Sequence record: NC_073085.1
Length of the DNA stretch: 45,204 nucleotides
Origin: Escherichia phage vB_EcoS_011D5
Reading direction: 5' to 3' (one strand)
Below are positions 1,350-45,204 of the stretch, in pieces (the first letter of the stretch is position 1; every line of letters starts with the position of its first letter). Under the pieces are notes generated by a model, which worked only from the letters and a program-made list of their open reading frames with translations, did not search any database and was not told the origin of the DNA. Made by a program: the position numbers and the translations under genes.

Positions 1350-1523
1350 TTATTCTTGCGCTGCGCGGTAACGGCGCTGCCGTTCACGCTCTTTCTTATT
1401 GCGGCATGATTTGCACTCGGCCCGATACCCGTCCGGGCTGCGCGCAGTCTTGCCGGTGTATTTGTGGAACTGGGATAGCGGTTTAACGCAGCCGCAATTA
1501 CTGCAGCGTTTTTCTTCAATCAT
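1350..1523 (-). CDS. Small zinc-ribbon protein (CxxC...CxxC, basic C-terminus)
   Basis: MIEEKRCSNCGCVKPLSQFHKY...AECKSCRNKKERERQRRYRAAQE; start chosen at internal ATG. Confidence 0.5.
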   Translation of the reverse strand: MIEEKRCSNCGCVKPLSQFHKYTGKTARSPDGYRAECKSCRNKKERERQRRYRAAQE

Positions 1524-1563
1524 TTCTAAAATCCTCGTTAGTGCTAACCTGCTCACTATACTG

Positions 1564-1842
1564 TTAAGCGACCAATTCAGCAACCAATAAATTGCAGTCG
1601 GCTATGTTGTCGATAACGCGAACGTCCGCACCGCGGCGGGCCATTCGCTCATGTTCTCGTACCTGGTGCGGCTTAGGTTTGCCGCCTGGGCGCTTCACTT
1701 CGACGAACACTATCTTGCCGTTGATGATGATTATCAGGTCGGGCGCACCTGCGCGCCCCTCCCATGCCACTTTACGGCAGAATCCGCCGACGGCTTTAAC
1801 CAACTTCATAAGGTGACTTTGAATCTTGCCTTCTGGTGTCAT
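1564..1842 (-). CDS. VRR-NUC domain nuclease
   Basis: GAPDLIIIINGKIVFVEVKRPGGKPKPHQ matches the VRR-NUC PD-(D/E)xK signature. Confidence 0.8.
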   Translation of the reverse strand: MTPEGKIQSHLMKLVKAVGGFCRKVAWEGRAGAPDLIIIINGKIVFVEVKRPGGKPKPHQVREHERMARRGADVRVIDNIADCNLLVAELVA

Positions 1843-5337: not shown

Positions 5338-5427
5338 TTTCCAATTCCTCATTTTCACATGTATCGGGGTTATTATGAGCCACCCCGTTCGGCTTGGTTG
5401 CTAATCTACTTGGTTGCACCTAAGCGG

Positions 5428-5670
5428 TCAAGCACTTTTATTAAAAAGATTTCTGGTCACGTAGTTGGTAGCGTTCTCGACCCAGCTTAACGGCGGTCGG
5501 TCGATGTTCTTCTCCACCCAGTCGACGGCAGCGTCACTATATCCGTCGTCAAGCCAGCGGGTCGGATGGCGAATCATCCACGCCACCATTAACACGCCCT
5601 GCACGCAATGCAGGATAAAGCCCAGCGCGCCGAGCAAAAACATCAATAAGATCGCAAATACTTTACTCAT
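5428..5670 (-). CDS. Small membrane protein (one TM helix)
   Basis: Hydrophobic stretch FAILLMFLLGALGFIL; start overlaps exonuclease stop. Confidence 0.5.
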   Translation of the reverse strand: MSKVFAILLMFLLGALGFILHCVQGVLMVAWMIRHPTRWLDDGYSDAAVDWVEKNIDRPPLSWVENATNYVTRNLFNKSA

Positions 5671-8221: not shown

Positions 8222-8456
8222 GGTGTATCTCCGATTGGTTAAGTTTAGGTGTCGACCATTAACTTCGTCGGTGGCCTTAACATAGTGCCCGGTTGCGCGT
8301 TCTCCCTTTCGGGTAGTGGACCGGGTTATATAATCACGGTTGGGAATCCTGACACTTCGATCCGGCCCCTGCGTTGCCCCTCTCCAGTTTGCTTCCTGCA
8401 TCCTGTCGACGAGGTGAATATTAGATTGGTTGCAGAAGGGAGTCAACAACTAATTT

Positions 8457-8621: not shown

Positions 8622-8951
8622 ATGAATATCAAAGAAGCAATTGAAGTGTTATCTAATGCAATCCGCGGCGAAGCGGGTAAATCCTGGTATTACACAAATG
8701 CGGTGGATACTCTGTTATTTGAAGTGTCCAGATTATCGCGTGCTGAGAAGGAGCTTACCGCGAAGCTGGAATTACTCAACGGCACGGCAGCAAGCAAGCT
8801 GCAAAAGCACAATGAAGAAATGGAAGAATACAAAAAACAGGTTATCCGTTTGCGCGCCGAGGGCAAATCCTGGGCAATGATCGCTGAGTTGACAGGAATT
8901 AATCAGAGCACCGTGCGCTCCTGGGTACGCAATAATAAAACTTCGAAGTAA
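8622..8951 (+). CDS. HTH DNA-binding protein (putative early transcriptional regulator)
   Basis: C-terminal HTH-like SWAMIAELTGINQSTVRSWV; first gene of the rightward operon. Confidence 0.6.
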   Translation: MNIKEAIEVLSNAIRGEAGKSWYYTNAVDTLLFEVSRLSRAEKELTAKLELLNGTAASKLQKHNEEMEEYKKQVIRLRAEGKSWAMIAELTGINQSTVRSWVRNNKTSK

Positions 8952-11226: not shown

Positions 11227-11319
11227 ATTTTGCGCGCATTGGTTGCCATTTTGAGTGTTTTTAGCTGGTCGCATTGGTTGCCGTGTGGTGTAAATATAGT
11301 GAATAGTTATGCAATAAAA

Positions 11320-11490
11320 CTGCATAAAGTAAGCGGGACAAAAAGCGGGACAGACCAGGGGCGGGACAAAGCGGGACAGCACCCCTGTCCCACCCCGGAT
11401 GACGCGGCCTGGCGGGGAGCGGGACAGGCGGGACAAACCCCAGTCTTTCAGACTAGACGGGGGTCAGTTGGCCCCCTCGTCTGAGACTGC
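11320..11490 (+). repeat. Composite repeat element copy A: 6 direct GCGGGACA(R) units, an inverted TGTCCC and a conserved GC hairpin block
   Basis: Direct reading; ~85-90 percent identical to 28560-28730. Confidence 0.85.
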
Positions 11491-11705
11491 ATAAAATCCG
11501 GGATTGCATAATACACGGCAGCATATTGGAAATCGCGGTCGTCGCTGAACTAGGCAACCAATGCGAGTTGCAGAATGGTGGGTGGGGAATGCAGTTTGCA
11601 GTTACAGCAGATAGCGATCAACTTTTTCATGCGCATGATTAATATTGGTTGCATTCGTGCCAGCACCCTGCTAGATTGGTTGCACACCAACAAGAGGACT
11701 GAACA

Positions 11706-12040: not shown

Positions 12041-12310
12041 ATGGTCCGCAGACGAGCTAAACAGCTTTCGTGGCATATTCCACTGCATTGTATACGCATA
12101 TGGGCTAAGAATGCGACTGAGGGCGATTCTGTGTTCTGGAGCTATCGCGACGATGTGAAGCCGTTGACGCAGACACGCTACTTGCACCAGTTCGCAGCAA
12201 AACACGATTTCAGGGTGCGGACCTCCTTGCAACCAATGGGAATCCGTATTACATTACGCCGGAAGCCCGCCGTTGAGCGGGTAGGCAAACACTGGAGACT
12301 AAGCAAATGA
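12041..12310 (+). CDS. Hypothetical protein (89 aa)
   Basis: ORF-track; operon context. Confidence 0.45.
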   Translation: MVRRRAKQLSWHIPLHCIRIWAKNATEGDSVFWSYRDDVKPLTQTRYLHQFAAKHDFRVRTSLQPMGIRITLRRKPAVERVGKHWRLSK

Positions 12311-14996: not shown

Positions 14997-15059
14997 TTGC
15001 TTGACTTGCAACCAACATAGACGCCATACTGCGACCAATCAACGAGAGGAGTAATCACG

Positions 15060-22793: not shown

Positions 22794-22947
22794 TTTGTCT
22801 TCCTTCATATCTCTGTTGGTGTGCAACCAATATACTGCAACCAACATTCGCAATGCAAGCGAATTTTGCGATTATTTTTATCGCTGATAATATTAAGGCG
22901 TGAAGTCAAGCGGGTGGCCCGCTTTGCCACAATCCCAGGGGGATAGC

Positions 22948-27663: not shown

Positions 27664-27691
27664 TTTGGTCGCTTAAATAGCGGGTGTTAAT

Positions 27692-27717
27692 ATGGGGCCA
27701 GTACGGCCCCTTTTTTA
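27692..27717 (+). terminator. Intrinsic terminator after the major tail gene
   Basis: GGGGCC-agta-CGGCCCC followed by T6. Confidence 0.75.
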
Positions 27718-27732
27718 TTGGAGAATTACATA

Positions 27733-28730: not shown

Positions 28731-28793
28731 GGTTTGTTTTAAATTCGCTGATACAATGACCGACGGCAACTGCATAAAAAGGGGGACTGCATA

Positions 28794-31436: not shown

Positions 31437-31443
31437 TAAAATG

Positions 31444-31473
31444 GCCCTCACAACCATCGTGGGGGTTTTTTTT
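31444..31473 (+). terminator. Terminator-like hairpin with T8 run after the tape measure gene
   Basis: CCCTCAC...GTGGGGG followed by TTTTTTTT. Confidence 0.4.
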
Positions 31474-32858: not shown

Positions 32859-32860
32859 CC

Positions 32861-33601: not shown

Positions 33602-34209
33602 CAACGTTTAAATTGTACGGCGTCTTGGGGCGTCGATTCGGTAAAGTGCATAAGCTGGACTGCTTCACTCCGGGCGAGGGTATCACCGGCCTGTGTGTGA
33701 AGTTACCCGGCTTACAGGACTTTCTAATGTCGGCCCACCTGGACAATATGATGTTCAAAGTGCGCAAGGGCAACCACACAATGACCGGTTATGATGAGCT
33801 TGGAGAGTTCCACGGCAACCGCGTAGTTACCATCGCTCCGGTTATGACTGGCGCAAAAAGAGGATTGGGCCAATTGCTGGCGGGTGTCGCGATCGTAGTG
33901 GCGTCGTTCTATACGGGCGGACTTGCTACTGCCGCTTTCGGGGCTTCGGCGGCAACCGCTGCCGCTATCGGTACGGCTACATTTTCGTTCGGCATGTCAC
34001 TTGCGCTGGGCGGTGCTATGCAATTGCTGTCCCCACAGCCGAAAGGATTGCAGACACGGCAGGACGTGGATAACAAAGCGTCGTATGCGTTCGGCGGGCC
34101 GGTAAACACGACCGCGCAAGGTACGGCACTTGGTGTATTATGGGGTGAGCGTGAGATCGGCGGCGCTATTATTTCAGCCGGAATCGTAACCGAGGATTTG
34201 AACGAATGA
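33592..34209 (+). CDS. Tail assembly protein I-like
   Basis: Gly/Ala-rich hydrophobic C-terminal half; between K-like and J-like genes. Confidence 0.6.
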   Translation: MAMTTFKLYGVLGRRFGKVHKLDCFTPGEGITGLCVKLPGLQDFLMSAHLDNMMFKVRKGNHTMTGYDELGEFHGNRVVTIAPVMTGAKRGLGQLLAGVAIVVASFYTGGLATAAFGASAATAAAIGTATFSFGMSLALGGAMQLLSPQPKGLQTRQDVDNKASYAFGGPVNTTAQGTALGVLWGEREIGGAIISAGIVTEDLNE

Positions 34210-37200: not shown

Positions 37201-37652
37201 CATATAGCCTTAAGGCTGGCGTGACGTATAACGGGGCTTACTACGATGCCGGTATGCAGCTTTCAGTTGTTGCGGAAGGTGGCGCGGTTAAATCCCGCAT
37301 CGCGTTCAAGGCGGACCAGTTCTACATCATGCACCCATCTAATGGGTCGCTTTCGTCCGCGTTTATCGTTGACGGCGGTCAGGTGTACATTGACACCGCA
37401 CGCATCAAGAACGCGTCTATCAACTTCGCGCAGATCACGGACACGCTGCAGTCGAATAACTGGAATCCAGGCAACAGTGGCTGGCGTATCGCGAAGGATG
37501 GCGGGGCGGAGTTCAACAACGTAACGGTACGAGGCAACTTGTTCGCTACTACTGGTAACTTCGGATTCTCTGGAGGGTCGGTACAGATCGACGCCACCGG
37601 CATTAACGTGCCATTGCCTGGCGGGGGTAGGGTGAAAGTGGGGACGTGGTAA
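34206..37652 (+). CDS. Central tail fibre / host specificity protein (gpJ-like)
   Basis: 1148 aa after I-like gene; canonical lambda-like order M-L-K-I-J. Confidence 0.8.
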   Translation: MTIVYDVTGHKGGGGKQHTPQETPDSLHSLAKIRILLALGEGEFEGIPDPNELRRRVYLDGTPIQNADLSENFPGARVEFRPGTQHQDVIHGFSAVESEQSVGVKLENGTPWVRQINDTSLDAVRIRIGIPALYTNEDNGDLVGGRIDYKFVVYTDNADPREFTFAAVGKTMSLYERDHRIELPPNVNTGWRVEVHRITANSTSAKVVNDIQVQSITEIIDARLRYPLTALLFVEFDAKAFQNIPRVSIKCKGRKVLIPNNYDPINHTYSGDWDGTFKRAWTDNPAWHWYDICITERFGLGRRIKPQMLNRYALYQIAQRCDQLVSDGNGGREIRFKNDMYIQSQTDAWTVLKDLAAIFAGMTWWGNQMLNIVSDQPVAAVSHTITNASVIDGRFDYASGSQKTRYSTFAVAYGNPKNHYDDAIATGQRVELVRRHKINRLDITAIGCTRESEAQRRGHWALISNQLDQQVSFKVGMEGLFFIPGSVVAIADTNISGGFETRGGRLLSDPGTRTVLNTDSEITFRPGDKFLVRTDSGNVETREIASVNGNKVTLKTALDADPIPDQPFCVDGDDIQLQKFRITDLEYDDSTSTFSVRGIEYNDSKYDAVDNGARLDPGIFTQVPDGVMKGPESVTITTSQISSQGQLITNVDIVFPPVKDAVVYEIQWRRTSLQNMAIQWGNDWVNIPRTASNGAHIPNVFSGNYQARVRAIGMGEISSPWVSSAITPVEGRLGGLNAPIITSAISGLHQILWKWNHNNAATDISYTELEVRKTGEAEWKFLTNVPYPGAEYAQTSLEFGIYQQLRARVADKIGNLSDWSAPFEGQVSDKVDEYMKGLDDEFLTSEDGKHFQEAIDTIPQGIYESMLTDAQQLINARSEYQGIYAEIKVAYNVATDAHKAVAQLETLIGTRLDDAEASIHTLQTAQSTHEQAFAQYQQTVAAKFGEQEAAIQQVQTATADVAGALAEYKTQVAAQFGQQSAAIEQKMTSSFNHAGGSATYSLKAGVTYNGAYYDAGMQLSVVAEGGAVKSRIAFKADQFYIMHPSNGSLSSAFIVDGGQVYIDTARIKNASINFAQITDTLQSNNWNPGNSGWRIAKDGGAEFNNVTVRGNLFATTGNFGFSGGSVQIDATGINVPLPGGGRVKVGTW

Positions 37653-37657: not shown

Positions 37658-37682
37658 AAGGGGCCGGATGGCCCCTTTTTAA
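37658..37682 (+). terminator. Intrinsic terminator between convergent genes
   Basis: GGGGCC-ggat-GGCCCC followed by TTTTT. Confidence 0.7.
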
Positions 37683-38644
37683 TAGATGTTAGGAATTACG
37701 AGTAACGGGGTGGGTACTGCAATGTTTTTACCCGGCATTTGGAATTGCTGCCGTGAATAGTTGCCGATTACCCGGTTTTTGGCGATGCGCACATTACCGC
37801 CTGCCATTCGAATCCCGTTCATTCGAACGTGATTGTAGCCGCCGTTGTTCTCAATGAGCGCGCCGGTATACGAAAGCTGGACCAGGCTATTGCCTATGTA
37901 CTGATCGCCGCCGCCGATATAGATAAGGCGGTCATAAACAAATGGCTTATTCACTGTTGAGAACGTGACCTGACCCTGGTTGTTTGTCATGGTGATGCCG
38001 TTTCCGGGGGTGGGTGGCGTATTGTTGAATATAACCAGGTCCATTTCAACGGCAGCGCCTACGTCGTCAATCCCACCATAGGACGCATTACGGACGATAA
38101 TACTTCCGCCATCGAAGCCGACCGACACGTTTCCGTCGTCCCAGCGCGCGAATGGGACACCGCCTACAGGTAACGGCATACTTCCGTTCACCCACACGCG
38201 CTGCGCATATTGGCAGGTCATTAGCCTGGATACATTTGATATGGCGGTAAAGTCCGTCGAGTTCGCCACCAGTAACCCTGCGTTGCGCGAACCCACCGGC
38301 AACACTTCCATGATCACCCCGCCCCATGTTGGAAGCCCGCTATATGCGCCATATGCGTCTTCACCTCGCAAGGTGATTCCGCCATCCCCGTTACGTTGTA
38401 CTGAGGTGACGTAGAAAGGGTCGGGCAAGACCAGTGTCTGGTCGAATACTTCTATAACTTCAACGGGGCTTGTGAGCGCGACGACCAGATCTGACCCTGG
38501 CGTTAGCTGAGTGTTAATAGTAAGCGTCTTATCAGACTGGCAGCGCTGATAGAATGAGGTACAGAATGACGGAGCGCGAAGTCCGGCTGTTATCTCCATC
38601 ACCGGCCTTCCGTCGTTGTAGTCTATAAGTATTCCAGCGCCCAT
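37679..38644 (-). CDS. Hypothetical Gly/Asn-rich protein (possible beta-solenoid), co-transcribed with the lipoprotein
   Basis: Repetitive G/N/V-rich motifs (GGGDQYIGN, NNGGYNH, GGNVRIAKN); start coupled to lipoprotein stop. Confidence 0.55.
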   Translation of the reverse strand: MGAGILIDYNDGRPVMEITAGLRAPSFCTSFYQRCQSDKTLTINTQLTPGSDLVVALTSPVEVIEVFDQTLVLPDPFYVTSVQRNGDGGITLRGEDAYGAYSGLPTWGGVIMEVLPVGSRNAGLLVANSTDFTAISNVSRLMTCQYAQRVWVNGSMPLPVGGVPFARWDDGNVSVGFDGGSIIVRNASYGGIDDVGAAVEMDLVIFNNTPPTPGNGITMTNNQGQVTFSTVNKPFVYDRLIYIGGGDQYIGNSLVQLSYTGALIENNGGYNHVRMNGIRMAGGNVRIAKNRVIGNYSRQQFQMPGKNIAVPTPLLVIPNIY

Positions 38645-38646
38645 AA

Positions 38647-38868
38647 TTACCACTCCCGAGATTTAACTGATACCGTACCAGAGAAGTTGCCGTCACTATC
38701 CGCGGACAGGCCGGTGAAGCGCATGTCGACCTCCCCGGCAGGGACTTTTTGCCCGTCAACGTAGCGCAACATGCAGCTTCCGTAAGCTACCGTAATGCAA
38801 TCGCCGTTGTTACGCTCTACCGCGCAGCCGGACAGAAGAACCGCACAAATCACAATTAATGTTTTCAT
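38647..38868 (-). CDS. Small lipoprotein (73 aa precursor), Llp/Cor-like superinfection-exclusion candidate
   Basis: Signal peptide MKTLIVICAVLLSGC with lipobox LSGC; RBS AGGGGA; next to receptor-binding genes. Confidence 0.6.
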   Translation of the reverse strand: MKTLIVICAVLLSGCAVERNNGDCITVAYGSCMLRYVDGQKVPAGEVDMRFTGLSADSDGNFSGTVSVKSREW

Positions 38869-38948
38869 GGTATCATCCCCTATATTTGGTTGAGTTTTAG
38901 TATTGCACCGCTCAACCAAGAATGCAACCAATTTATGAGGATTCAGCT

Positions 38949-40589
38949 ATGGCAGCGGGTACACTATCCGTAACGAATAACAGCAAGGCGGTTGTCGGGG
39001 TAGGCACGACGTTTACCACGTTTACCGCTGGCGACTTCTTAACTCTGGTGGTGGGGCAAGTGCCTTACACTGTTGCTATCGCGTCCGTCGAAAGCGACAC
39101 CGCGATTACGCTTGTGCTTCCGTTCGACGGCCCCACGGCAACCGGCCTCGCGTGGGATGGCGTTAAGCGCGATACCATGTCGCTGGCAACGATGGGCGTA
39201 ACAGTACAGGCACAGAAAGCGTTGCGCTTGATGATCGCTGACGAAAACAACTGGCGTGCAATCTTCGGAGACGAAGAAGAAGTCACGGTAACGCTGCCGA
39301 ACGGGCAAGTTATGCAAGGTATGTCCTGGGGCTACCTGTCACAATTGATGAATCAGATCGACCCCGTTGAAATGCGCAACCTGCAACAACAAGCCGCGGC
39401 ATCTGAAGCAGCAGCGCAAGGATTTCGCAATGAGGCCGAAGGCTTCAAGACTGAGACGGCGGGGATCCGCGACGCCACCAACCAGATTAAGGCGGATACG
39501 CAGGCTATCCACGACGCCACCAATACCATCAAGACGCAGACGGCCCAGATTAAGACTGACACGCAGGCCATCAAGGGCCAGACGGACCAGATTAAGACAG
39601 ACACCGGCGTTATTCGCGATGAGGCCAATGCCGCGAAGGCTGAAGCGCAAGCCGCCAGCACTGCCGCGCTTGGATATCGGAACGAGGCCGAACAATTCAA
39701 GAATGAGATTGACCCGTCTAACTTTCTGGCAAAGGGTGGCAACCTGGCTGGGTTAACTGACTTGCCCGAGTCGCGGGATAACTTGGGTTTAGGAGCGTTG
39801 GCGACTAAAGATTCGGCGGCGCTAAACTCCACAGATACGACCGGTATTCTGCCCTTAGATAAGGGCGGTTTAGGCGCTGGTACCATCCCTGGCGCACGGG
39901 AGACGATGCATATTTATGGTCATGACGCTACGTTCGGGACCATAAATAATATCCTCACATACTTCAACAATATTGCGGGTAACGGCGGACTCTTCTCGTT
40001 TCGAGATGGTGCCGTTGACGCCACGAACACCTACAAATTCGGCTCAGCAATACTGTTTCGCACAGCCGACACCTACGGACTGTTAAGTGTTGACCACAAC
40101 AGCGGAAACGTTAGAGCATCCGGTGGTACAGTTTCTGGTGGGATCGCGGCCACAGCATACATCAACAACCTGTGGGGTACGCGTAACACCACCGTAGACG
40201 GTAACGGGTTTATTAAAACCGCGTCGCCCATCGTCAAGATCTTCAGTGACGGTGCCGCGGAGACTAACGACGAGGCCGAAGGCGTTACGGTGACTCGCAT
40301 ATCTGCGGGGGTGTATGTTGTGGAGGGGTGTCTAGGCCTCAACTCAGACCCATCCTGGGGCGGGCCTGACGGCGGGATTGAGATTCCGACGGACGTGAAC
40401 AAGCAGCCTCGTTTATGGGTTGATTATAAAGTGCGCGCTGACGGCTCTGTGGAGGTACGCACATACCACCGAACACACCCACACGCTCCAGCATTCGCAA
40501 GAAATGAGATAGAAGGTGTGGCGGAAGGGGACCCGGTTGATATACCGCGTGGCACGTTCATATCTGTTCGGGTTAATATGCCTGAGTAA
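38949..40589 (+). CDS. Tail fibre protein with 11-residue periodic helical repeats
   Basis: RBS GAGGA; repeats IKADTQAIHDA / TNTIKTQTAQ / IKTDTQAIKGQ / TDQIKTDTGV (33 nt periodicity ~39460-39620). Confidence 0.7.
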   Translation: MAAGTLSVTNNSKAVVGVGTTFTTFTAGDFLTLVVGQVPYTVAIASVESDTAITLVLPFDGPTATGLAWDGVKRDTMSLATMGVTVQAQKALRLMIADENNWRAIFGDEEEVTVTLPNGQVMQGMSWGYLSQLMNQIDPVEMRNLQQQAAASEAAAQGFRNEAEGFKTETAGIRDATNQIKADTQAIHDATNTIKTQTAQIKTDTQAIKGQTDQIKTDTGVIRDEANAAKAEAQAASTAALGYRNEAEQFKNEIDPSNFLAKGGNLAGLTDLPESRDNLGLGALATKDSAALNSTDTTGILPLDKGGLGAGTIPGARETMHIYGHDATFGTINNILTYFNNIAGNGGLFSFRDGAVDATNTYKFGSAILFRTADTYGLLSVDHNSGNVRASGGTVSGGIAATAYINNLWGTRNTTVDGNGFIKTASPIVKIFSDGAAETNDEAEGVTVTRISAGVYVVEGCLGLNSDPSWGGPDGGIEIPTDVNKQPRLWVDYKVRADGSVEVRTYHRTHPHAPAFARNEIEGVAEGDPVDIPRGTFISVRVNMPE

Positions 40590-40599: not shown

Positions 40600-40625
40600 G
40601 AAGGGGCCATTCGGCCCCTTTTTAA
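40600..40625 (+). terminator. Intrinsic terminator after the tail fibre gene
   Basis: GGGGCC-attc-GGCCCC followed by TTTTT. Confidence 0.7.
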
Positions 40626-41197
40626 TTTGAGTTTTCCCAGTCCATTTTGCGCCGCACAAGCGGGCTTTCGTAGTATTCCTTACCTTCCACTTCCACTAAA
40701 TGCCAGTCATTCACAATCACGTATGGCTCTGCTATATCCTCAATCACGCCGTGCGCGCTATGCTGCCCGAACGACACGCCAACCAGAATAACACCGGCAA
40801 CCCGACGGGAAAGATACTCGCGGGCACAACGGGCCTCAACCAGACCGCGACGGATGCCGCTGGTGGCTTTGACCTCATATGTCCAGACGGCATCAATCAT
40901 GTGCTCTTTGTAGTCAGGACCGGATTTTACCTTGCGCTTGCCGACCATGATAATATCGCCTCGGTCGATAGTGTTAGCGCTAAACAGGCCGGTACGCATT
41001 AGCAAACCTTGCGGGATACAGCTACGCCCGCCCGCCTGCCCTTCGAGGTACATTCCCGCAAACATCTCACCCAGCACACCGACAAGGCGGCTTTGCTTGC
41101 ACGCGTCAGACTTTAAGCGCCACTGTTCAAATTCGATGCTGGCTAACATTGCCGCCAGGTGGAATTGTTTACCGGTTATTTCATATTCGCCGTACAT
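40622..41197 (-). CDS. Hypothetical protein, possible PD-(D/E)xK nuclease
   Basis: GDIIMVG ... IDAVWTYEVKAT is compatible with a D...ExK motif; weak. Confidence 0.4.
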   Translation of the reverse strand: MYGEYEITGKQFHLAAMLASIEFEQWRLKSDACKQSRLVGVLGEMFAGMYLEGQAGGRSCIPQGLLMRTGLFSANTIDRGDIIMVGKRKVKSGPDYKEHMIDAVWTYEVKATSGIRRGLVEARCAREYLSRRVAGVILVGVSFGQHSAHGVIEDIAEPYVIVNDWHLVEVEGKEYYESPLVRRKMDWENSN

Positions 41198-41238
41198 TGT
41201 GCATCCCTCATTGATGCGGGCCGAAGCCCGCGATTAAA

Positions 41239-41730
41239 TTATTTAAGTGCGCTGCGTACCAATTTCTTTTCCATGTTACGGAAATCTTCCTGCGTCATGC
41301 AGATTTTCGATCCGTCCTCGCCAGTTAGCAGGACCATAGGCTGCACATCTTGCGCTACAACCCCAAAATCGCGGGCATTCACCGTCTTGCCCGCGGAAGA
41401 ATGCCCGCCTTTTAGGCTGTCGAATTGTGCTGCCGTTGTATCGATCTGAATCTCGTCATGCACGGTCATGTAAGACTCGCCCAGCAGGGCGGCATACGCC
41501 ACCAGATCCACGATGTTATCTTCCTGGTGCTTACGGTGCTGGCGCACCAGCTTCAGGCAGATCAGGAAGGTCCAGGCTTCTTGCTCGGTAAGGTCGCGCC
41601 CGGTAAGCGCGTTAAACACGGCGGCGACCTGTTTAGCGCTGCGTTCTTCTTTCGCGTTGTCATAGCCGTTTTCTTTCCCGCGCTGTTCCATAGTGGTGGC
41701 GGCGTTTTTGCAGTATTCGTATGCTTTCAC
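41239..41730 (-). CDS. Hypothetical protein (163 aa)
   Basis: ORF-track with GTG start; RBS-like AAAAGGG upstream. Confidence 0.4.
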   Translation of the reverse strand: MKAYEYCKNAATTMEQRGKENGYDNAKEERSAKQVAAVFNALTGRDLTEQEAWTFLICLKLVRQHRKHQEDNIVDLVAYAALLGESYMTVHDEIQIDTTAAQFDSLKGGHSSAGKTVNARDFGVVAQDVQPMVLLTGEDGSKICMTQEDFRNMEKKLVRSALK

Positions 41731-41794
41731 AGTATTACCCTTTTTAGTGAGGGGGCTTTATTGCCCCCGACACGTTTAATATAGTGCAACCAAC

Positions 41795-42265
41795 CTATTG
41801 GTTGCAAGTGAATTTTGCAACGTTTATTGCGTAAATTTTCGGGACCAAATCACCACACGCCCGACGAATTGCCGCGATGTTCTTCTCGCAATCTTCAATG
41901 ATGACCAGTTCCGACACGTCCGCATAGCAGACCATTTTGAACACGGCGCACGCCTTAAACTCTGGCGGCGGGGTGTCGTCCAGCATGTGGCGCATAAACA
42001 ACCGGCCTACCGGGAAGACCTCCAATTGCTCGGCGGTGGTGTCCCAGCATTCTCGCTGCCGGTTGGTCAGATACGCGATCTCGAAGCCTCGCTCTTTGTA
42101 CATGCGCAGCAACGGCAGCATATCCATATTCAGGTCTTCGCGTACGTGCGCCTTGTGCCACTTCGCCCAAAAGGTGGATTTAGTTTTTATACCAGGCACC
42201 AGGTCGGCGCGCGCATCGCTTGAACCGTTAATAACTCCATCCAAATCGCAAATCAGTAATTTCAT
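41795..42265 (-). CDS. HAD-superfamily phosphatase / nucleotidase-like
   Basis: Motif I LICDLDGVI; motif II YLTNR; C-terminal acidic motif IIEDCEKN. Confidence 0.7.
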   Translation of the reverse strand: MKLLICDLDGVINGSSDARADLVPGIKTKSTFWAKWHKAHVREDLNMDMLPLLRMYKERGFEIAYLTNRQRECWDTTAEQLEVFPVGRLFMRHMLDDTPPPEFKACAVFKMVCYADVSELVIIEDCEKNIAAIRRACGDLVPKIYAINVAKFTCNQ

Positions 42266-42486
42266 TTTAGGCTCTCAATAAGGGTGGCTCGGGCGCTACG
42301 CGCGGTGTAAGAGTTGCACACGAAATGACAACGTCGGGTCATGACAAGCCAACCGGTGAGGTCAAGGCCCAGGATGTATTCGGGGCGAGACGCGCGCACC
42401 ACACGATCGCGGCGTGGGTCGATGTTATAGTCTTTTTGCATTTGGTCTACGACCGCGTGGTCGCGGTCAACGATTAAGATATTCAC
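42262..42486 (-). CDS. Small hypothetical protein
   Basis: ORF-track; GTG start overlapping the 3' end of the Dam-like gene. Confidence 0.3.
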   Translation of the reverse strand: MNILIVDRDHAVVDQMQKDYNIDPRRDRVVRASRPEYILGLDLTGWLVMTRRCHFVCNSYTARSARATLIESLK

Positions 42487-42952
42487 GTAGTTCTCCTTCG
42501 CTCATTATTTCAATTTGTGCGCTGCCGATGGGCGGCGCTTCGTCAAAGATTATCAATTGCTGGCACTTGTTATTGCTCGGCCCGACTTCACCGGTTACAG
42601 CATGTATGAATCGGATCCGCCAGTCCAGAAGAATTATCAGGTTTGCAGTCTTCCGGGCCAGCTTCGCCCACTTAGTCGACGTGTCCTGATTCAGTAGCAT
42701 GACGGTCCGGCGTCCGTGCGCTGCGCACTCGACCCACGGCAGCGGATCGGAATACGGCGGATTGCACCACTTCCACCCTTTCAACTCCGACCAGTCCGCA
42801 TCGAGCGCGCTGTGCTCTGCCGTGAAGTAACGCGGCAGCAGGTGGTTTGCGTCGCTCGCCGCCATATCGTAACGGAATCGGTACTTCCGGCGCAGTGGTT
42901 TAAATAAAGCTGGCGGTGTGCGCCAGCTATCTTTTTGCTCATTCTCCGTCAT
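42467..42952 (-). CDS. Phage Dam-type DNA N6-adenine methyltransferase
   Basis: WRTPP...FRYDMAASDANHL...WCNPPYS (NPPY catalytic motif). Confidence 0.8.
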   Translation of the reverse strand: MTENEQKDSWRTPPALFKPLRRKYRFRYDMAASDANHLLPRYFTAEHSALDADWSELKGWKWCNPPYSDPLPWVECAAHGRRTVMLLNQDTSTKWAKLARKTANLIILLDWRIRFIHAVTGEVGPSNNKCQQLIIFDEAPPIGSAQIEIMSEGELREYLNR

Positions 42953-43397
42953 AGTCTGGATCTATCGCATACAGGGCGGTTTTCTTGCCGCTAGACAGCA
43001 CACGTTGGACTCGGGATATCTCCGCCCTACTGAGCGGTCTGCTATCGGAATAGTAGCTGCCGTTTGCACGCCACGCTATACGCACCAGTCCTTCCCGCGG
43101 GATCGAAGACTGGCGGCCTTTGGGGCGCACGTACTCCTCCGCGCGTTTACAATGCTCCCGCAGACCGTCGGCAGTGATGCGGTTTAGCGCCACGCTGGTT
43201 GTGTATCCGGTGCGCTGCATAATACCCATCAACTCATACAGCAGATCGAAGCGCTCCTCTAATTCCTTGCGCGCCTTCTCCTCGCCTTCATAGCTCGCCA
43301 GGTAGGTGTCCGCCAGCGCGTTCGCGCGTTCGGCCTGTTCGCGGGCTTCGAGGCATTGCGCGGCCCAGTAATTTTTTTCTTCTTGTAAAATTTTCAT
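42939..43397 (-). CDS. Coiled-coil hypothetical protein
   Basis: ORF-track, ATG start; helical charged sequence. Confidence 0.45.
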   Translation of the reverse strand: MKILQEEKNYWAAQCLEAREQAERANALADTYLASYEGEEKARKELEERFDLLYELMGIMQRTGYTTSVALNRITADGLREHCKRAEEYVRPKGRQSSIPREGLVRIAWRANGSYYSDSRPLSRAEISRVQRVLSSGKKTALYAIDPDYDGE

Positions 43398-43640
43398 CTA
43401 TTTAGTCTCCGTAGTGCGGATTTCATCGCGTGGAATAAATTTGCCGTCCATCTCCACCCAGCAGACTCCGTATCGCCATTGGGTGTTACGGCCTGTTTGC
43501 TCGGCATACACGGTCTTGCATTCGTAGCGTTCCGTGTAGTAAATAGCCGTCGAAGGTATGCCAATACAACCGGCAATCATGAGGGTGAGTAGCACCCAAA
43601 ATCGAAGGTCGCCGTCGTAGTCGAAAAATAATGATTTCAT
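43398..43640 (-). CDS. Small membrane protein (possible lipoprotein)
   Basis: MKSLFFDYDGDLRFWVLLTLMIAGCIGI; RBS GGAGA; two TTGGTTGCA motifs upstream. Confidence 0.45.
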   Translation of the reverse strand: MKSLFFDYDGDLRFWVLLTLMIAGCIGIPSTAIYYTERYECKTVYAEQTGRNTQWRYGVCWVEMDGKFIPRDEIRTTETK

Positions 43641-43720
43641 CGTGTTGTCTCCGGGTATTAAAAAGGGCGTCCAACCGGACACCCTTAAGATAATGCAACC
43701 AATATGATTATGCAACCAAT

Positions 43721-44044
43721 TTACGAATAAAAATTTGGGTCGCGCGCTACGTCTACCAGATACAGATTGCTCATGCGGTTGCCGTAGTGCCCTGGTGTGC
43801 GCTGGCGGCACACAACGGCGAAGCCTGGGGGAATTGTATTGCCCGTCTCGATAATCCACGCCACGCGTGCGCCAGACAGCGTCTTGCCGTTGTATTCGAT
43901 GCGCGTGCCACCATCGGCAGTGTTAAGGTTGCCAATCTTACAGCCTGTGGACTTCAGGCGAATGACACCGGTCTTGCTGTCGTAGGAAAAAAGCTGATTG
44001 GTCATTGCCACTGAAAAGTCGATTGCGTCGAATGCAGTATTCAT
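43721..44044 (-). CDS. HNH-endonuclease-like protein with substituted catalytic residues
   Basis: Scaffold YDSKTGVIRLKS...GTRIEYNGKTLSGARVAWIIETG resembles phage HNH homing endonucleases, but the usual HRVAW / VDHING positions read ARVAW / VVCRQR. Confidence 0.5.
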   Translation of the reverse strand: MNTAFDAIDFSVAMTNQLFSYDSKTGVIRLKSTGCKIGNLNTADGGTRIEYNGKTLSGARVAWIIETGNTIPPGFAVVCRQRTPGHYGNRMSNLYLVDVARDPNFYS

Positions 44045-44751
44045 TTTAAATTTTCCTCGTTAACCGCTATCGCGAAGCCGCGCGGGGTGAGTGAGCGGAT
44101 TAATTTTGTACGAGCGGATTTACCACCGAGGCGACTATACTGCTTCGAGTACCCATTTTCAACGAAAACAGGTTTCTTCTCTGGCATACGGAAGCCGTTG
44201 CCGGTCCATAAGCAGGTCAGCTTCGGATATGAATCGCGGGCGTTGATGTATTCCGGGAATAACGGGTGCACGTCATCCTCCGGCAGATATCCACCATACT
44301 CCCACGGGTTAAACGAGTGGTCCGGCTTGCGCCATTGGGTCGATAGCACGCTGCGCGGATTCTCAATCATATATGGCACTTCGAAGAAGTCCCCCAGGTA
44401 AGCGGCGATCTTCGCGGTGCGCACCGCCTTAAGCTGAAAGGCCGGGTCTTTGGCCCGCTTGCGCGGGAAAGCTGGCGCACCGCTAACTGCCAGATCCGTA
44501 CACAGCGGGAACGCATATATGATATCCGGCGTACCGAAATCGCCATTCATCGCGCGGTCTACAAAGTCCAGATCGATAAACTCATTGCGATATCGGATCC
44601 CGCGACCATAAATCCGGTAGTCTAGGTACGACCCGTGGTCGGCTTCGGAGTAGTTGAAGCAATAACACTTATGCCCCATCTCGGCAGCACGCTCAATCAT
44701 CAAGCCGCTGCCGTCAAACAATGACCAGATTGTCATTTTAGCAATAGTCAT
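44041..44751 (-). CDS. DNA cytosine-C5 methyltransferase-like protein (short, divergent)
   Basis: Motif I-like LFDGSGLM; motif IV-like AFPLCTDLAVSG (PLC instead of PCQ); motif VI-like MIENPRS; LTPRGF near C-terminus; ATGA coupling to helicase stop. Confidence 0.65.
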   Translation of the reverse strand: MTIAKMTIWSLFDGSGLMIERAAEMGHKCYCFNYSEADHGSYLDYRIYGRGIRYRNEFIDLDFVDRAMNGDFGTPDIIYAFPLCTDLAVSGAPAFPRKRAKDPAFQLKAVRTAKIAAYLGDFFEVPYMIENPRSVLSTQWRKPDHSFNPWEYGGYLPEDDVHPLFPEYINARDSYPKLTCLWTGNGFRMPEKKPVFVENGYSKQYSRLGGKSARTKLIRSLTPRGFAIAVNEENLK

Positions 44752-45204
44752 TTGCGCGCCTTTTTAGCTTTCATGTATTCCATCAAGTCGTCCTGAATAT
44801 CTCGCTTACTGTCGCGACGTTCGGCGACCAGTTCATCCAGTGTCCCGCGCGCCTGGATAATGTAGACGAATACCGGACGAGGGTGTCCGGCTTGCATCTG
44901 GCGAACCGGCCCTATACGCTCCACAATCTGCGAAAAGTGCTCATAGTTCCAGGTGTCTGAGAAGATAGCAAGGTGGTGCCCCCCATCCTGCAGGTTAAGT
45001 CCGTGACCCGCTGACGCTGGGTGTGCAAACATGATGGGGATCTCGCCCCTGTTCCACGCTTCCATATCCTTATTTCCTTGCTTACCCTTACCCATCGCTA
45101 CGCCGTGCGGGAATTTCTTCTTGAGACGCGCCAGATCATGCTTGTACTGGTATGCGACGAGCAACGGCGCGCCGTTCAACTCCTCCACGATACTTTCCAG
45201 CGCG
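44748..45204 (-). CDS. SNF2/DEAD-like helicase, C-terminal part (helicase motif VI-like HPASAGHGLNLQ)
   Basis: ORF-track 44748..45188 has no true start (GTG in-frame) and continues upstream into the duplicated end. Confidence 0.8.
   Translation of the reverse strand, partial: ALESIVEELNGAPLLVAYQYKHDLARLKKKFPHGVAMGKGKQGNKDMEAWNRGEIPIMFAHPASAGHGLNLQDGGHHLAIFSDTWNYEHFSQIVERIGPVRQMQAGHPRPVFVYIIQARGTLDELVAERRDSKRDIQDDLMEYMKAKKARK

What the first reader, a model, noticed from the sequence alone, without database searches (positions are those of the whole stretch)
41785..41806. Dispersed 9-mer TTGGTTGCA / TGCAACCAA in about ten intergenic regions, including a perfect inverted repeat
The motif appears as a palindrome at ~41785-41806 (TGCAACCAA-ccta-TTGGTTGCA), as direct pairs at ~5393/5410, ~11645/11676, ~22822/22836 and ~43694/43711, and singly at ~8426, ~11554, ~15007 and ~38923. 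Nearly all sit 20-70 bp upstream of the first gene of an apparent transcription unit, on either strand. Two sites share an extended 23-mer, TTGGTTGCACACCAACA-AGAG (11676 and the reverse complement near 22810), running into the ribosome-binding site. The inverted and direct arrangements suggest an operator for a dimeric phage regulator; alternatively the TTGCA core is a -35-like element of a phage promoter class.
Basis: seen in the sequence. Interest (0 to 1): 0.6.

Follow-up and report, generated by a model that had tools for sequence, protein, structure and literature searches.

The report
Conserved operator word in phage promoters
A 9-base word repeated about 19 times in this E. coli phage sits inside the core of at least ten host-type promoters, is conserved in at least four phage genera, and travels with a tiny uncharacterised zinc-ribbon protein that is probably its reader, which points to an apparently undescribed phage gene-control circuit.

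Summary
TTGGTTGCA occurs 13 times (0.47 expected) and is the top 9-mer; the core is (A)TTGGTTGC (19 copies). Twelve of 13 exact copies are intergenic. All nine Dhillonviruses examined keep 10-13 copies at orthologous places.

Footprinting shows invariant copies separated by freely varying bases. Each of ten clusters overlaps a gene-directed sigma70-like promoter. Copies sit in either orientation in three registers: supplying the -35 (TTGCAT/TTGCAA), in the spacer next to the -10, or from the end of the -10 to +1. So it is an operator, not one promoter element or a dyad site.

The favoured reader, the HTH protein (8622-8951), is probably wrong. Edwardsiella phage eiAU, Klebsiella phage VLCpiS11a and Serratia phage Smarc3 carry the word but no HTH homolog. 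The 57-aa Zn-ribbon protein (1350-1523) is in every motif-positive complete genome and no motif-negative one. Its gene is preceded by the motif in seven lineages (24 of 27 loci). In an unrelated contig it co-occurs with a variant word.

Best model: a self-regulated Zn-ribbon regulator occluding about ten promoters. Binding and sign are inferred. No description was found.

The parts
41785..41806 (.). The flagged inverted repeat: two motif copies (41798-41806 + strand, 41785-41793 - strand) inside leftward promoter P41785 (-35 TTGCAA 41807-41802, 18-nt spacer, -10 TATATT 41783-41778). The reverse copy supplies the -35; the forward copy fills the spacer, 1 nt from the -10.
   Evidence: The arms are invariant in 8 genomes while the 4-nt loop varies (tagg/ccta).
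43687..43719 (-). P43694: copy 43711-43719 supplies the -35 (TTGCAT 43715-43710); copy 43694-43702 lies in the spacer, 1 nt from the -10 TATCTT (43692-43687).
   Evidence: The 8 nt between the copies varies freely among genomes while the copies do not.
38899..38931 (-). P38923: a single copy (38923-31) supplying the -35 TTGCAT, then a 17-nt spacer and -10 AATACT; upstream of the lipoprotein/cor-like gene 38647-38868.
22822..22858 (-). P22822: -35 TTGCAT (22858-22853, itself a 7/9 degenerate copy); copy 22836-44 in the spacer; copy 22822-30 overlaps the last TT of the -10 TATATT and runs to +1. The extended 17-mer is TTGGTTGCACACCAACA. The pair also lies about -62/-76 from the start of the divergent head-gene promoter (TTGCGA 22866-71, TAATAT 22888-93).
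   Evidence: JL1 has lost one copy through a 14-bp deletion.
15001..15038 (+). P15007: -35 TTGACT; reverse copy 15007-15 directly after it; -10 CATACT; degenerate reverse copy 15030-38 (TGCGACCAA) from the end of the -10 to +2. Upstream of the phosphoesterase/terminase block.
   Evidence: The whole module is replaced in Envy and YD-2008.s.
12227..12255 (+). P12228: an internal promoter inside a gene (12041-12310). The reverse copy 12228-36 supplies the -35 TTGCAA, then a 17-nt spacer and -10 TACATT.
   Evidence: The copy is invariant in 8 genomes although the surrounding coding sequence belongs to divergent alleles.
11645..11684 (+). P11676: copy 11645-53 supplies the -35 (TTGCAT); the 17-nt spacer is variable; -10 TAGATT; copy 11676-84 runs from the end of the -10 to +1 (17-mer TTGGTTGCACACCAACA), 22 nt before the ATG of 11706.
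11235..11566 (.). Region B, just 3' of the primase-helicase gene: three copies of CGCATTGGTTGCC (11235-47 and 11269-82 direct; 11553-66 inverted) bracket an array of GCGGGACA(G/A) iterons.
   Evidence: annotated as a repeat region in the SO-1 record
8418..8446 (-). P8426: proximal leftward early promoter (TTGACT-17-TAATAT) with reverse copy 8426-34 in the spacer, 2 nt from the -10.
   Evidence: Bases between the -35 and the copy vary; the copy is invariant.
5394..5431 (-). P5410 (TTGACC-17-TAGATT), upstream of the SSB-like gene: reverse copy 5410-18 in the spacer, 1 nt from the -10; degenerate reverse copy 5394-5402 from the -10 to +3.
   Evidence: The same architecture lies upstream of the orthologous gene in VLCpiS11a.
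1555..1587 (-). P1579: internal promoter directly upstream of the Zn-ribbon gene. Copy 1579-87 (TTGGTTGCT) supplies the -35 TTGCTG; copy 1567-75 (TTGGTCGCT) lies in the spacer; -10 TATAGT 1560-55.
   Evidence: conserved in all Dhillonviruses and in div1/div2
1350..1523 (-). Candidate reader: a 57-aa Zn-ribbon protein (CxxC...CxxC) with a basic C-terminal helix (RNKKERERQRRYRAAQE). Records label it HNH endonuclease, Lar-like or KilA; no curated family matches above its cut-off.
8622..8951 (+). The HTH protein (109 aa; long helix 21-79 plus a C-terminal HTH), first gene of the motif-free rightward early operon.

Best explanation
(A)TTGGTTGC(A) is the operator of a phage-encoded transcription regulator and is built into the core of at least ten host-RNA-polymerase (sigma70-type) promoters of the phage. 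The promoters head the replication, DNA-modification, lysis, packaging and accessory operons. Further copies flank the iteron array next to the primase-helicase gene. Each promoter carries one or two (in one case three) asymmetric copies, in either orientation, in one of three registers: over the -35 hexamer, in the spacer against the -10, or from the end of the -10 to +1. A protein bound at any of these registers would compete with RNA polymerase, so the likeliest action is repression: a timed shut-down or damping of these operons. The early rightward promoter (P_R) and the head-gene promoter carry no copy in their cores. The most likely reader is the 57-aa Zn-ribbon protein with a basic helix, encoded at 1350-1523. 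It has its own motif-bearing internal promoter (P1579), which would give negative autoregulation. Shown: enrichment, conservation, promoter-embedded geometry, and co-occurrence with the Zn-ribbon gene. Inferred: that these promoters fire, that the Zn-ribbon protein binds the word, and that the effect is repression.
For: Enrichment and location: 13 vs 0.47 copies; top 9-mer; 12 of 13 intergenic, P = 4e-12. Conservation: 10-13 copies in all nine Dhillonviruses, 0-1 in a Jerseyvirus and a Kagunavirus. Copies are invariant while the bases between paired copies vary. An intragenic copy is kept across divergent coding alleles. Promoter geometry: all ten clusters overlap a gene-directed sigma70-like site in the top 0.16% of genome-wide scores; 8 of 8 intergenic clusters overlap a top-0.2% footprint (permutation p = 0.001 within intergenic DNA). 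16 of 19 TTGGTTGC copies lie within -45..+8 of such a site (P = 3e-10); VLCpiS11a 10 of 13 (3e-6); eiAU 10 of 23 (2e-3). Copy centres cluster at -36/-30, -24..-18 and -4..+2 and avoid the -10 hexamer. Reader: Zn-ribbon profile hits (E <= 3e-24) occur in every motif-positive complete genome (Dhillonviruses, eiAU, Smarc3, VLCpiS11a) and in none of the motif-negative ones (SETP3, phiWAO78-1, Golestan). VLCpiS11a belongs to the same subfamily as the motif-negative phages. The TGGTTGC core lies within 200 bp upstream of the Zn-ribbon gene in 24 of 27 loci with >=50% identity, and in 0 of 24 with <50%. P1579 is conserved with two copies. Contig L159 has the Zn-ribbon (69% identity, altered basic helix) but no primase-helicase, SNF2, SSB, VRR-NUC or Dam homolog within +/-10 kb; it carries the variant TATGGTTGC 4 times vs 0.19 simulated, including an inverted pair directly upstream of the Zn-ribbon gene. 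The AF2 model shows a zinc knuckle plus a 19-residue basic helix.
Against: No binding, transcription-start or expression data exist for any of these phages, and no paper in the library maps them. The promoters are consensus predictions only. The motif-positive clades may share ancestry, so any clade-specific gene would correlate; the Dam-type methylase has the same profile among complete genomes. In Smarc3 only 3 of 13 copies are promoter-associated and most lie inside genes. Arrays of the same word occur in contigs L102 and L026, and promoter copies in L019, with no Zn-ribbon in the 10-13 kb available. The Zn-ribbon has no significant structural or family match to any known DNA-binding protein. 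Copies over the -35 could equally serve an activator, so the sign of regulation is open.
Confidence: 0.5

Rival explanations
1. The reader is the 109-aa HTH protein (8622-8951), the first gene of the early rightward operon. It would bind as a coiled-coil dimer with flexibly linked HTH domains, acting as a Cro-like early regulator.
For: It is the only recognisable HTH among 20 small proteins scanned. Its C-terminal 60 residues are almost invariant while the N-terminus varies. HK578's allele is only 45% identical but keeps RLRAEG-SW--IAE-TGIN-ST-R-W and has the same word. Relatives with V95 instead of Q95 shift base 9 from A towards G (G7/A3 and G5/A2 vs A13/G0). The Dhillonvirus-specific A at position -1 coincides with the Dhillonvirus-specific presence of this protein. 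The long helix 21-79 would allow a flexible dimer.
Against: The protein is confined to Dhillonviruses and close metagenomic relatives. The same word is top-ranked in eiAU, VLCpiS11a and Smarc3, with the same promoter architecture in eiAU and VLCpiS11a, and none of them has a homolog even by profile HMM at E <= 1. Those phages have an unrelated Cro/XRE protein at that position, which motif-negative phages share. The A-to-G shift could instead follow changes in the Zn-ribbon helix of the same genomes.
Confidence: 0.12
2. The word is an initiator-binding site in the manner of DnaA boxes. It would be read by the primase-helicase (8962-11226) or a replication partner, clustered at an origin next to that gene, and dispersed at promoters to couple transcription to replication.
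For: The densest clusters lie immediately 3' of the primase-helicase gene in every clade: window region B plus P11676; Smarc3 39411-39525 (4 copies); eiAU 26870-27635 (9-10 copies); VLCpiS11a 4793-5323. In 65%-GC contig L102, ten copies with a 10-bp period follow a VapE-type primase-helicase. An N-terminal domain (residues 67-176) is shared by the window, eiAU and L102 proteins despite different helicase domains.
Against: Golestan and Shemara have the N-terminal region at the same 35-39% identity but lack the word. L159 has the variant word and the Zn-ribbon but no primase-helicase homolog within +/-10 kb. The C-terminus is no more conserved between the window and Smarc3 than between the window and motif-free outgroups. 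In the window, 16 of 19 copies sit in core promoters rather than in a regular array. Region B and region A hold a separate iteron family, GCGGGACAG.
Confidence: 0.12
3. No dedicated factor exists. The word is a promoter element read directly by host sigma70 RNA polymerase, a phage promoter class with a TTGCA -35.
For: In seven copies TTGCA(T/A/G) sits exactly where a -35 should, 17-18 nt from a conserved -10. The forward register centred at -36 is the single commonest class across clades (9 cases).
Against: The other ten promoter copies lie in the spacer or at -8..+3, in both orientations, where no -10 follows at promoter spacing. The invariant TTGG 5' of TTGCA is not needed for a -35. Promoters with good TTGAC(T/C) -35 hexamers still carry the word (P5410, P8426, P15007). 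Co-occurrence with a phage gene would be unexplained, because motif-negative phages use the same hosts.
Confidence: 0.08
4. The word is bound by a conserved host protein of Enterobacterales that these phages exploit.
For: All four characterised motif-positive clades infect Enterobacterales: Escherichia/Shigella/Sodalis, Edwardsiella, Serratia and Klebsiella.
Against: I could not match the word to any E. coli regulator site I know (own knowledge, not a database test). Phages with the same replication module and the same hosts lack it. It also occurs in contigs of 41% and 65% GC whose hosts are unlikely to be enterobacteria. The variant word in L159 tracks a variant Zn-ribbon.
Confidence: 0.08

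Closest known systems
Phage P1 C1 repressor and its dispersed asymmetric operators (own knowledge)
   Same: One phage protein controls many operons scattered around the genome through an asymmetric operator. The operator occurs singly or in pairs, in either orientation, overlapping promoters.
   Different: P1 is temperate and C1 is a large immunity repressor with a 17-bp site. Here the phages are described as strictly lytic with no recognisable repressor, the site is 9-10 bp, and the candidate reader is a 57-aa Zn-ribbon. No homology was tested.
Mycobacteriophage L5 gp71 'stoperators' (own knowledge)
   Same: Tens of copies of a short asymmetric word concentrated in short intergenic regions of a siphophage.
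   Different: Stoperators keep one orientation relative to transcription and block elongation downstream of promoters. Here the copies take both orientations and sit within -45..+3 of promoters.
DnaA boxes (own knowledge)
   Same: An asymmetric 9-mer, in either orientation, clustered next to a replication gene and also dispersed in promoters.
   Different: The sequence is unrelated (TTATCCACA shares 4 of 9 positions). There is no AAA+ initiator homology. Most copies in the window are in promoters rather than in an origin array.
Small Zn-binding phage transcription factors (P2 Ogr / P4 Delta) and the Zn-ribbon repressor NrdR (own knowledge)
   Same: Precedents for a very small Cys4 zinc protein (Ogr, 72 aa), or a zinc-ribbon domain (NrdR), reading promoter-proximal DNA sites. 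NrdR boxes come in pairs overlapping promoters.
   Different: Ogr/Delta are late-gene activators that bind a dyad near -55. NrdR has an ATP-cone and 16-bp palindromes. No sequence or fold similarity to either was detected: Pfam, NCBIfam and Foldseek gave nothing significant.
NarL/LuxR-type heptamer sites and the flexible operators of AraC or CytR (own knowledge)
   Same: Short asymmetric recognition units used in variable number, orientation and spacing at different promoters.
   Different: Those readers are HTH proteins. The only HTH protein here resembles that fold, but it does not co-occur with the word outside one genus.

Membership tests
sigma70 -35 promoter element | A TTGACA-like hexamer 16-18 nt upstream of a TATAAT-like hexamer, oriented towards the gene | tested here: inconclusive
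   Met by 7 of the 17 promoter-associated copies (11645, 38923, 43711, 1579 forward; 12228, 41798 reverse; the 7/9 copy at 22853-58). Not met by the 10 copies in the spacer or at +1. True of a subset only, so it is not the defining role.
Dyad-symmetric operator of a dimeric HTH repressor (lambda/Cro type) | Two inverted half-sites at fixed spacing | tested here: not met
   Only 41785-41806 is an inverted pair. The other pairs are direct, with start-to-start spacings of 12, 14, 16, 17, 23 and 31 bp, and three clusters have a single copy.
Dyad-symmetric operator of a dimeric HTH repressor (lambda/Cro type) | A cognate HTH protein encoded wherever the operator occurs | tested here: not met
   The HTH profile hits only Dhillonviruses. 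eiAU, Smarc3 and VLCpiS11a have the word but no hit at E <= 1.
Stoperator-type elongation blocks (L5 gp71) | A single orientation relative to the direction of transcription; located downstream of promoters | tested here: not met
   The 16 promoter-associated TTGGTTGC copies scored split 11 forward and 5 reverse, and all lie within -45..+3 of predicted starts.
Replication-origin iterons | Tandem direct repeats at regular, helically phased spacing in one non-coding region next to the initiator gene | tested here: inconclusive
   Not met in the window: region B has only 3 irregularly spaced copies, and the regular array there is a different word, GCGGGACAG. Met in unrelated contig L102 (10-bp period). 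Partly met in eiAU (9-10 irregular copies).
Intrinsic terminator (for the 41785-41806 hairpin) | A GC-rich hairpin followed by a U-run on the transcribed strand | tested here: not met
   The scan flags it only on the + strand, which is antisense to the local genes. On the - strand the stem is followed by CTATATTAAAC.
Known structured RNA families (Rfam) | A match at or above a family's gathering score | tested here: not met
   No Rfam family reaches its threshold anywhere in the window. Mixed orientation relative to transcripts also argues against an RNA-level element.
Lar restriction-alleviation / HNH endonuclease (labels attached to the Zn-ribbon protein) | A significant match to the Lar_restr_allev or HNH profiles | tested here: not met
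   Pfam Lar_restr_allev scores E = 0.065 for 1 of 7 members, below its cut-off, and there is no HNH domain. NCBIfam gives nothing above cut-off. Only PHROG remote clustering gives the Lar-like label.
Autoregulated phage transcription factor with a dispersed regulon (the functional class assigned) | The factor's gene carries its own operator; factor and operator co-occur and co-vary across genomes | tested here: met
   The operator lies upstream of the Zn-ribbon gene in 24 of 27 loci and seven lineages. The presence/absence split among complete genomes is perfect. A variant protein pairs with a variant word in L159.
Autoregulated phage transcription factor with a dispersed regulon (the functional class assigned) | Sequence-specific DNA binding and an effect on transcription | not testable with these tools
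   This needs EMSA or footprinting, reporter assays, or a phage mutant with RNA-seq.

The most novel reading that the evidence does not exclude
A previously unrecognised family of about 55-90-aa Zn-ribbon-plus-basic-helix proteins, currently mislabelled Lar-like, HNH or KilA, are sequence-specific transcription regulators. Through a 9-bp asymmetric operator written into the -35, spacer or +1 of about ten sigma70 promoters, and through sites flanking the probable origin, one such protein runs the temporal programme of supposedly regulator-less virulent siphophages in at least four genera (Dhillonvirus, Eiauvirus, the VLCpiS11a group, the Smarc3 group). It would also couple transcription to replication, as DnaA does.
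Probability: 0.35. Interest if true: 0.72.

Novelty: new variant of a known kind. Interest (0 to 1): 0.6.

Why it matters
Dhillonviruses are widely used model and therapy-candidate coliphages (the BASEL and SECphi collections), yet genome papers call them lytic phages with no repressor, and no promoter map exists. This analysis supplies a testable promoter map: ten promoters with predicted -35, -10 and +1 positions. It also identifies a genome-wide cis-regulatory code conserved across several genera and names a specific 57-aa candidate regulator. If that regulator is confirmed, it would add a minimal Zn-ribbon DNA reader to the known types of phage transcription factor. It would correct a widespread misannotation. 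It would give phage engineers a compact, orthogonal operator/regulator pair, and it would flag sites that should not be disturbed when editing intergenic regions.

Tried and rejected
(1) HTH protein as reader: followed in depth (Pfam, family alignment, AF2, Foldseek, allele comparison, base-9 covariation). Demoted when eiAU, Smarc3 and VLCpiS11a proved motif-positive but HTH-negative.
(2) Cro/XRE protein at the syntenic position in non-Dhillonviruses: homologous in motif-positive and motif-negative phages alike, and its recognition helix shows no discriminating pattern.
(3) Primase-helicase C-terminal or N-terminal domain as reader: no discriminating conservation; the N-terminal domain is also present in the motif-negative Golestan and Shemara.
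(4) Pair scan of viral contigs (TTGGTTGCA-N3-30-TTGGTTGCA): mostly unrelated tandem coding repeats, but it yielded L102, L026 and L019.
(5) The search for homologous proteins with the primase-helicase N-terminus and with the Zn-ribbon gave almost nothing. The search for related loci with an alignment replaced them.
(6) RNA-level element: rejected on mixed orientation and the absence of any Rfam hit.
(7) Terminator reading of the palindrome: rejected.
(8) sigma54 and host transcription-factor sites (NtrC, CytR, PdhR/GntR, FNR, DnaA, IHF, Tus): considered from memory and none fits. This was not a database test.
(9) Golestan's alternative 'iteron' is only a (GAGT)n microsatellite.
(10) Literature: nine searches and six papers found no description of the word, of Dhillonvirus transcription, or of the Zn-ribbon family. 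The original SO-1 and EP23 papers were not in the library.
(11) Structure searches for both proteins returned no significant whole-protein neighbour.
Full report
IDENTITY OF THE WINDOW. The 45,204-bp window is a Dhillonvirus, an HK578-like virulent E. coli siphophage. 120 phage records cover at least 80% of a 20-kb query at about 92-94% identity. It shares its length and nearly all gene coordinates with Escherichia phage vB_EcoS_L-h 1M (OM262540.1), but differs at 3,173 positions arranged in mosaic blocks. I used that record's annotation as a gene map. The blocks are: leftward replication genes 1088-8221; rightward 8622-21660 (HTH, primase-helicase, small genes, lysis, packaging); leftward 21675-22808; rightward structural genes 22948-37652; leftward 37679-38868; rightward 38949-40589; and leftward DNA-metabolism genes 40622-45179.

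TTGGTTGCA occurs 13 times against 0.47 expected, and none of 100 dinucleotide shuffles reached 13. In an unbiased scan against a third-order Markov background it is the best 9-mer. The conserved core is (A)TTGGTTGC: 19 copies of the 8-mer and 13 of ATTGGTTGC. Twelve of the 13 exact copies lie in the 9.1% of the genome that is intergenic (P = 4e-12). The perfect inverted repeat at 41785-41806 is as described.

CONSERVATION. All nine Dhillonviruses examined, including Sodalis phage SO-1, have 10-13 exact copies (simulated mean about 0.5) at orthologous places. A Jerseyvirus and a Kagunavirus with a related replication module have 0 and 1. Alignments of each region across eight genomes show the classic footprint. 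The copies are invariant while the bases between paired copies drift; for example, the 8-nt gap in the 43694 region reads taatcata / taaccgta / taattaga / gtacggga. -10-like and -35-like hexamers are conserved as well. The copy at 12228 lies inside a gene whose flanking codons belong to divergent alleles, yet the copy and a downstream TACATT are untouched.

WHAT THE COPIES ARE PART OF. I scored every position on both strands with an approximate E. coli sigma70 model; the frequencies come from my own knowledge and are approximate. Each of ten clusters overlaps a promoter-like site that points at the downstream gene and ranks in the top 0.16% genome-wide. Eight of the top 25 sites in the genome overlap a copy, and a ninth overlaps the one-mismatch copy at 1579. 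All eight intergenic clusters overlap a top-0.2% footprint (permutation p = 0.001 within intergenic DNA). Sixteen of 19 TTGGTTGC copies lie within -45..+8 of such a site, against 17% background (P = 3e-10).

The copies occupy three discrete registers in either orientation:
- Class A: the word supplies the -35, as TTGGTTGCAT or, in reverse, TTGCAACCAA, 17-18 nt before the -10. Copies: 11645, 38923, 43711, 1579, 12228, 41798.
- Class B: the word fills the spacer and ends 1-2 nt (7 nt for 1567) before the -10, as in TTGGTTGCA-n-TATAnT. Copies: 22836, 43694, 41785, 5410, 8426, 1567.
- Class C: the word starts in the last bases of the -10 and runs to about +1, as in TAnATTGGTTGCA. Copies: 11676, 22822, 5394, 15030.
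- The copy at 15007 follows the -35 directly.

No copy covers the -10 itself. Most promoters combine A+B, A+C or B+C. The flagged palindrome is one such case: the reverse arm gives the -35 TTGCAA, the forward arm fills the spacer, and TATATT follows (P41785). Three predicted promoters have no copy in their cores: the rightward early promoter (TTGACA-17-TAGTTT, 8562-8590), a distal leftward promoter (8549-8521), and the perfectly conserved head-gene promoter (TTGCGA-16-TAATAT, 22866-22893). All promoters are predictions, because no transcription-start data exist.

A word that appears at -35, in the spacer and at +1, in both orientations, cannot be one RNA-polymerase contact element; the '-35-like' idea is right for class A only. 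A dyad operator is not the rule either: there is one inverted pair, and the direct pairs are spaced 12 to 31 bp apart. The pattern is that of an asymmetric operator for a separate DNA-binding factor. Because nearly every promoter has a copy in class B or C, inside the polymerase footprint, repression is the more natural effect. This is inference.

WHO READS IT: THE HTH PROTEIN LOOKED GOOD AND THEN FAILED. Among 20 small proteins scanned, only the 8622-8951 product has a DNA-binding domain; it scores above the curated cut-offs for HTH_23, Sigma70_r4_2 and HTH_28 over residues 65-105. Its C-terminal 60 residues are nearly invariant across homologs while the N-terminus varies. HK578's 45%-identical allele keeps the recognition-helix signature and the same word. 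Relatives with V95 instead of Q95 prefer G over A at base 9. The AF2 model (pLDDT 83) is a 59-residue helix leading into an HTH, and only the HTH has structural neighbours, none of them significant.

However, the protein exists only in Dhillonviruses and their close metagenomic relatives, and the word does not stop there:
- Edwardsiella phage eiAU-183 has 23 TTGGTTGC copies (14 with A), its top-ranked word, with the same architecture: TTGGTTGCAT-17-TATAG|TTGGTTGCA at 18148/18116, and TTGCAT-17-TATAGT at 42946/42934.
- Klebsiella phage VLCpiS11a has 13 copies, 10 of them in promoter footprints. One is TTGACA-tc-TGCAACCAA-ctaaat-TAACGT upstream of its SSB gene, which mirrors the window's P5410.
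- Serratia phage Smarc3 has 13 copies.

None of the three has an HTH homolog, even by profile HMM at E <= 1. They carry an unrelated Cro/XRE protein at that position. Motif-negative phages share that protein, and its recognition helix shows no discriminating pattern.

THE ZN-RIBBON PROTEIN FITS. A presence/absence profile of all window proteins singled out two non-structural proteins found in motif-positive but not motif-negative genomes: the 57-aa product of 1350-1523 and the Dam-type methylase. The 57-aa protein reads MIEEKRCSNCGCVKPLSQFHKYTGKTARSPDGYRAECKSCRNKKERERQRRYRAAQE. AF2 (pLDDT 79) predicts a Cys4 zinc ribbon followed by a 19-residue basic helix. Its family core is CxxC-..KP...(F/Y)H(K/R)(Y/F)...DG.R..CK.CR plus a basic tail.

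Both a signature search and a profile HMM find it in every motif-positive complete genome (Dhillonviruses, div1/div2, eiAU, Smarc3, VLCpiS11a) and in none of the motif-negative ones (SETP3, phiWAO78-1, complete Golestan, partial Shemara). There were no false positives in 120 unrelated loci. VLCpiS11a is classified in Guernseyvirinae together with the motif-negative Jersey-, Kaguna- and Cornellviruses, so the split is not simply one deep clade against another.

The gene sits in the middle of the replication operon, yet it has its own motif-bearing promoter in every lineage:
- Window: P1579, TTGGTTGCTG-17-TATAGT with a second copy in the spacer; conserved in div1/div2.
- Smarc3: TTGACA-17-TATAGT-ca-TGCAACCAA-...ATG.
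- VLCpiS11a: TTGGTTGCAG-17-TAGTAT-g-TTGGTTGCT-aaggagg...ATG.
- eiAU: the 18148/18116 promoter, one small gene upstream.
- L161/L162: TTGGTTGCT-N18-TAAGCT-a-TTGGTTGCAACCA.

Across 51 viral contigs recovered with the family alignment, 24 of 27 loci with at least 50% identity have the TGGTTGC core within 200 bp upstream of the gene, and 0 of 24 with lower identity do. Chance is about 0.02 per locus.

The most telling case is L159. Its Zn-ribbon is 69% identical with a different, less basic helix. There is no primase-helicase, SNF2, VRR-NUC, SSB or Dam homolog within +/-10 kb. The shifted word TATGGTTGC occurs four times (0.19 simulated), with an inverted pair directly upstream of the gene. That separates the Zn-ribbon from the methylase and from the primase-helicase, and it looks like protein-site covariation.

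No curated family or solved structure matches the protein significantly, so the labels 'Lar-like', 'HNH endonuclease' and 'KilA anti-repressor' found in records are unsupported.

WHAT REMAINS UNEXPLAINED. In all clades the densest cluster of copies lies immediately 3' of the primase-helicase gene: window region B, where three CGCATTGGTTGCC copies bracket a GCGGGACAG iteron array; Smarc3; eiAU; and VLCpiS11a. The unrelated 65%-GC contig L102 has ten copies at a 10-bp period in that same position. This keeps a DnaA-box-like link to replication alive, either through the same reader or through the primase-helicase. In Smarc3 most copies are intragenic and not promoter-associated. L102, L026 and L019 show the word without a Zn-ribbon in the 10-13 kb available. 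The Dhillonvirus preference for A at position -1 (G elsewhere) and the base-9 shift are compatible with either protein.

COMPARISON WITH KNOWN SYSTEMS AND NOVELTY. Functionally this resembles dispersed asymmetric operator networks (P1 C1, L5 stoperators) and, in its 9-mer, two-context distribution, DnaA boxes. It fails the defining features of stoperators (orientation, position), of dyad operators, and of a pure -35 element; see the membership table. Small zinc proteins that regulate phage promoters are known (Ogr/Delta), and NrdR shows that a Zn-ribbon can read paired promoter boxes, but no similarity to either was detected. Nine literature searches and six papers found no mention of the word, of Dhillonvirus promoters, or of this protein family. 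Genome papers describe these phages as lytic with no repressor. I class the finding as a new variant of a known kind, with moderate-to-high interest: the cis-element network is solid, and the identity and sign of the regulator are testable inferences.

VERDICT. Best explanation (confidence 0.5): a promoter-embedded operator for a phage-encoded, self-regulated factor, most probably the 1350-1523 Zn-ribbon protein acting mainly by occlusion. Rivals: HTH reader 0.12, replication-initiator sites 0.12, direct RNA-polymerase element 0.08, host factor 0.08.

Noticed in passing
window 11330-11440 and 28411-28670: A second dispersed repeat family, GCGGGACA(G/A) (AAAGCGGGACAG 5-7 times vs 0.01-0.03 expected), forms two arrays of at least 8 copies. 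One lies in the 369-bp gap after the primase-helicase gene and one in the 384-bp gap before the tape-measure gene. The second array has 32-nt inverted repeats. The SO-1 record annotates both as repeat regions. They may be origins or regulatory hubs.
   Followed up: partly
window, genome-wide (e.g. 1216, 5525, 10556, 18100, 30453): The octamer GCTGCCGT/ACGGCAGC occurs 33 times vs about 3 expected, with a 26:7 strand bias concentrated in the rightward gene block. Related words are top-ranked in relatives (GCTGCCGTG in Smarc3; GTTGCCGTT in eiAU and Kagunavirus). It could be a Chi-like or polarity signal, or a coding bias.
   Followed up: partly
window 8448-8549 (- strand): The strongest-looking leftward promoter (TTGAAA-17-AATAAT with TG, 8549-8521) runs within about 30 nt into a strong intrinsic terminator (GCGCCG...CGGCGC + T9, about 8485-8452) that sits just upstream of the motif-bearing P8426. 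That suggests a short (about 60-nt) RNA or an attenuator.
   Followed up: no
window 43651-43675 (- strand): A conserved hairpin plus T5 (GGGTGTCC-ggtt-GGACGCCC-TTTTT, with compensatory changes in Envy) begins at the predicted +1 of P43694. Read-through RNA from upstream would terminate there, while promoter-initiated RNA would lack the 5' arm and escape.
   Followed up: no
window 8594-8610: The 5' UTR of the HTH gene carries the dyad TTGGTcatta(A/G)CCAAC, the same TTGGT-N5-ACCAA geometry as the extended class C sites (TTGGT-TGCAC-ACCAA at 11676 and 22816). It is absent from HK578, which has the divergent HTH allele. It may be a separate operator for the HTH protein.
   Followed up: partly
whole window vs OM262540.1 (L001): The window has exactly the length and gene coordinates of phage vB_EcoS_L-h 1M but differs at 3,173 positions. 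Blocks of 0% and about 8-10% divergence (mostly third codon positions) alternate, and a block at about 27000-28900 is out of register. It is a mosaic relative, not the deposited record.
   Followed up: partly
window 44748-45204 + 1-~1085 (- strand): The linearisation point of the sequence splits the SNF2-family helicase gene. The first about 1,085 bases, unannotated in the related record, are its N-terminal part on the minus strand.
   Followed up: partly
window 11596-11709 and 22805-22930: Two small ORFs annotated in the related record lie entirely over promoter/operator DNA (P11676, P22822). They are probably not genes.
   Followed up: no
window 21675-22439 (-): A 254-aa protein with a full-length Nmad5 (nucleotide-modification-associated) domain, E = 1.6e-60, is driven by the motif-bearing P22822. 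It hints at DNA or nucleotide modification in this phage.
   Followed up: no
L102 6313-6626; L026 2754-3174; L019 169-474: Unrelated viral contigs use the same word. L102 (65% GC) has ten cTTGGTTGCAc copies at a 10-bp period between a VapE-type primase-helicase gene and VRR-NUC/SNF2 genes. L026 has twelve ctaATTGGTTGCAtcc copies in 420 bp. L019 has TTGGTTGCAG-17-TATAAT twice. No Zn-ribbon gene is seen in the fragments available.
   Followed up: partly
window 8230-8380: The leader between P8426 and the first leftward gene contains an insertion of about 150 nt. It is present in the window, HK578, EP23, JL1 and SO-1 but absent from Envy, YD-2008.s and rolling.
   Followed up: no
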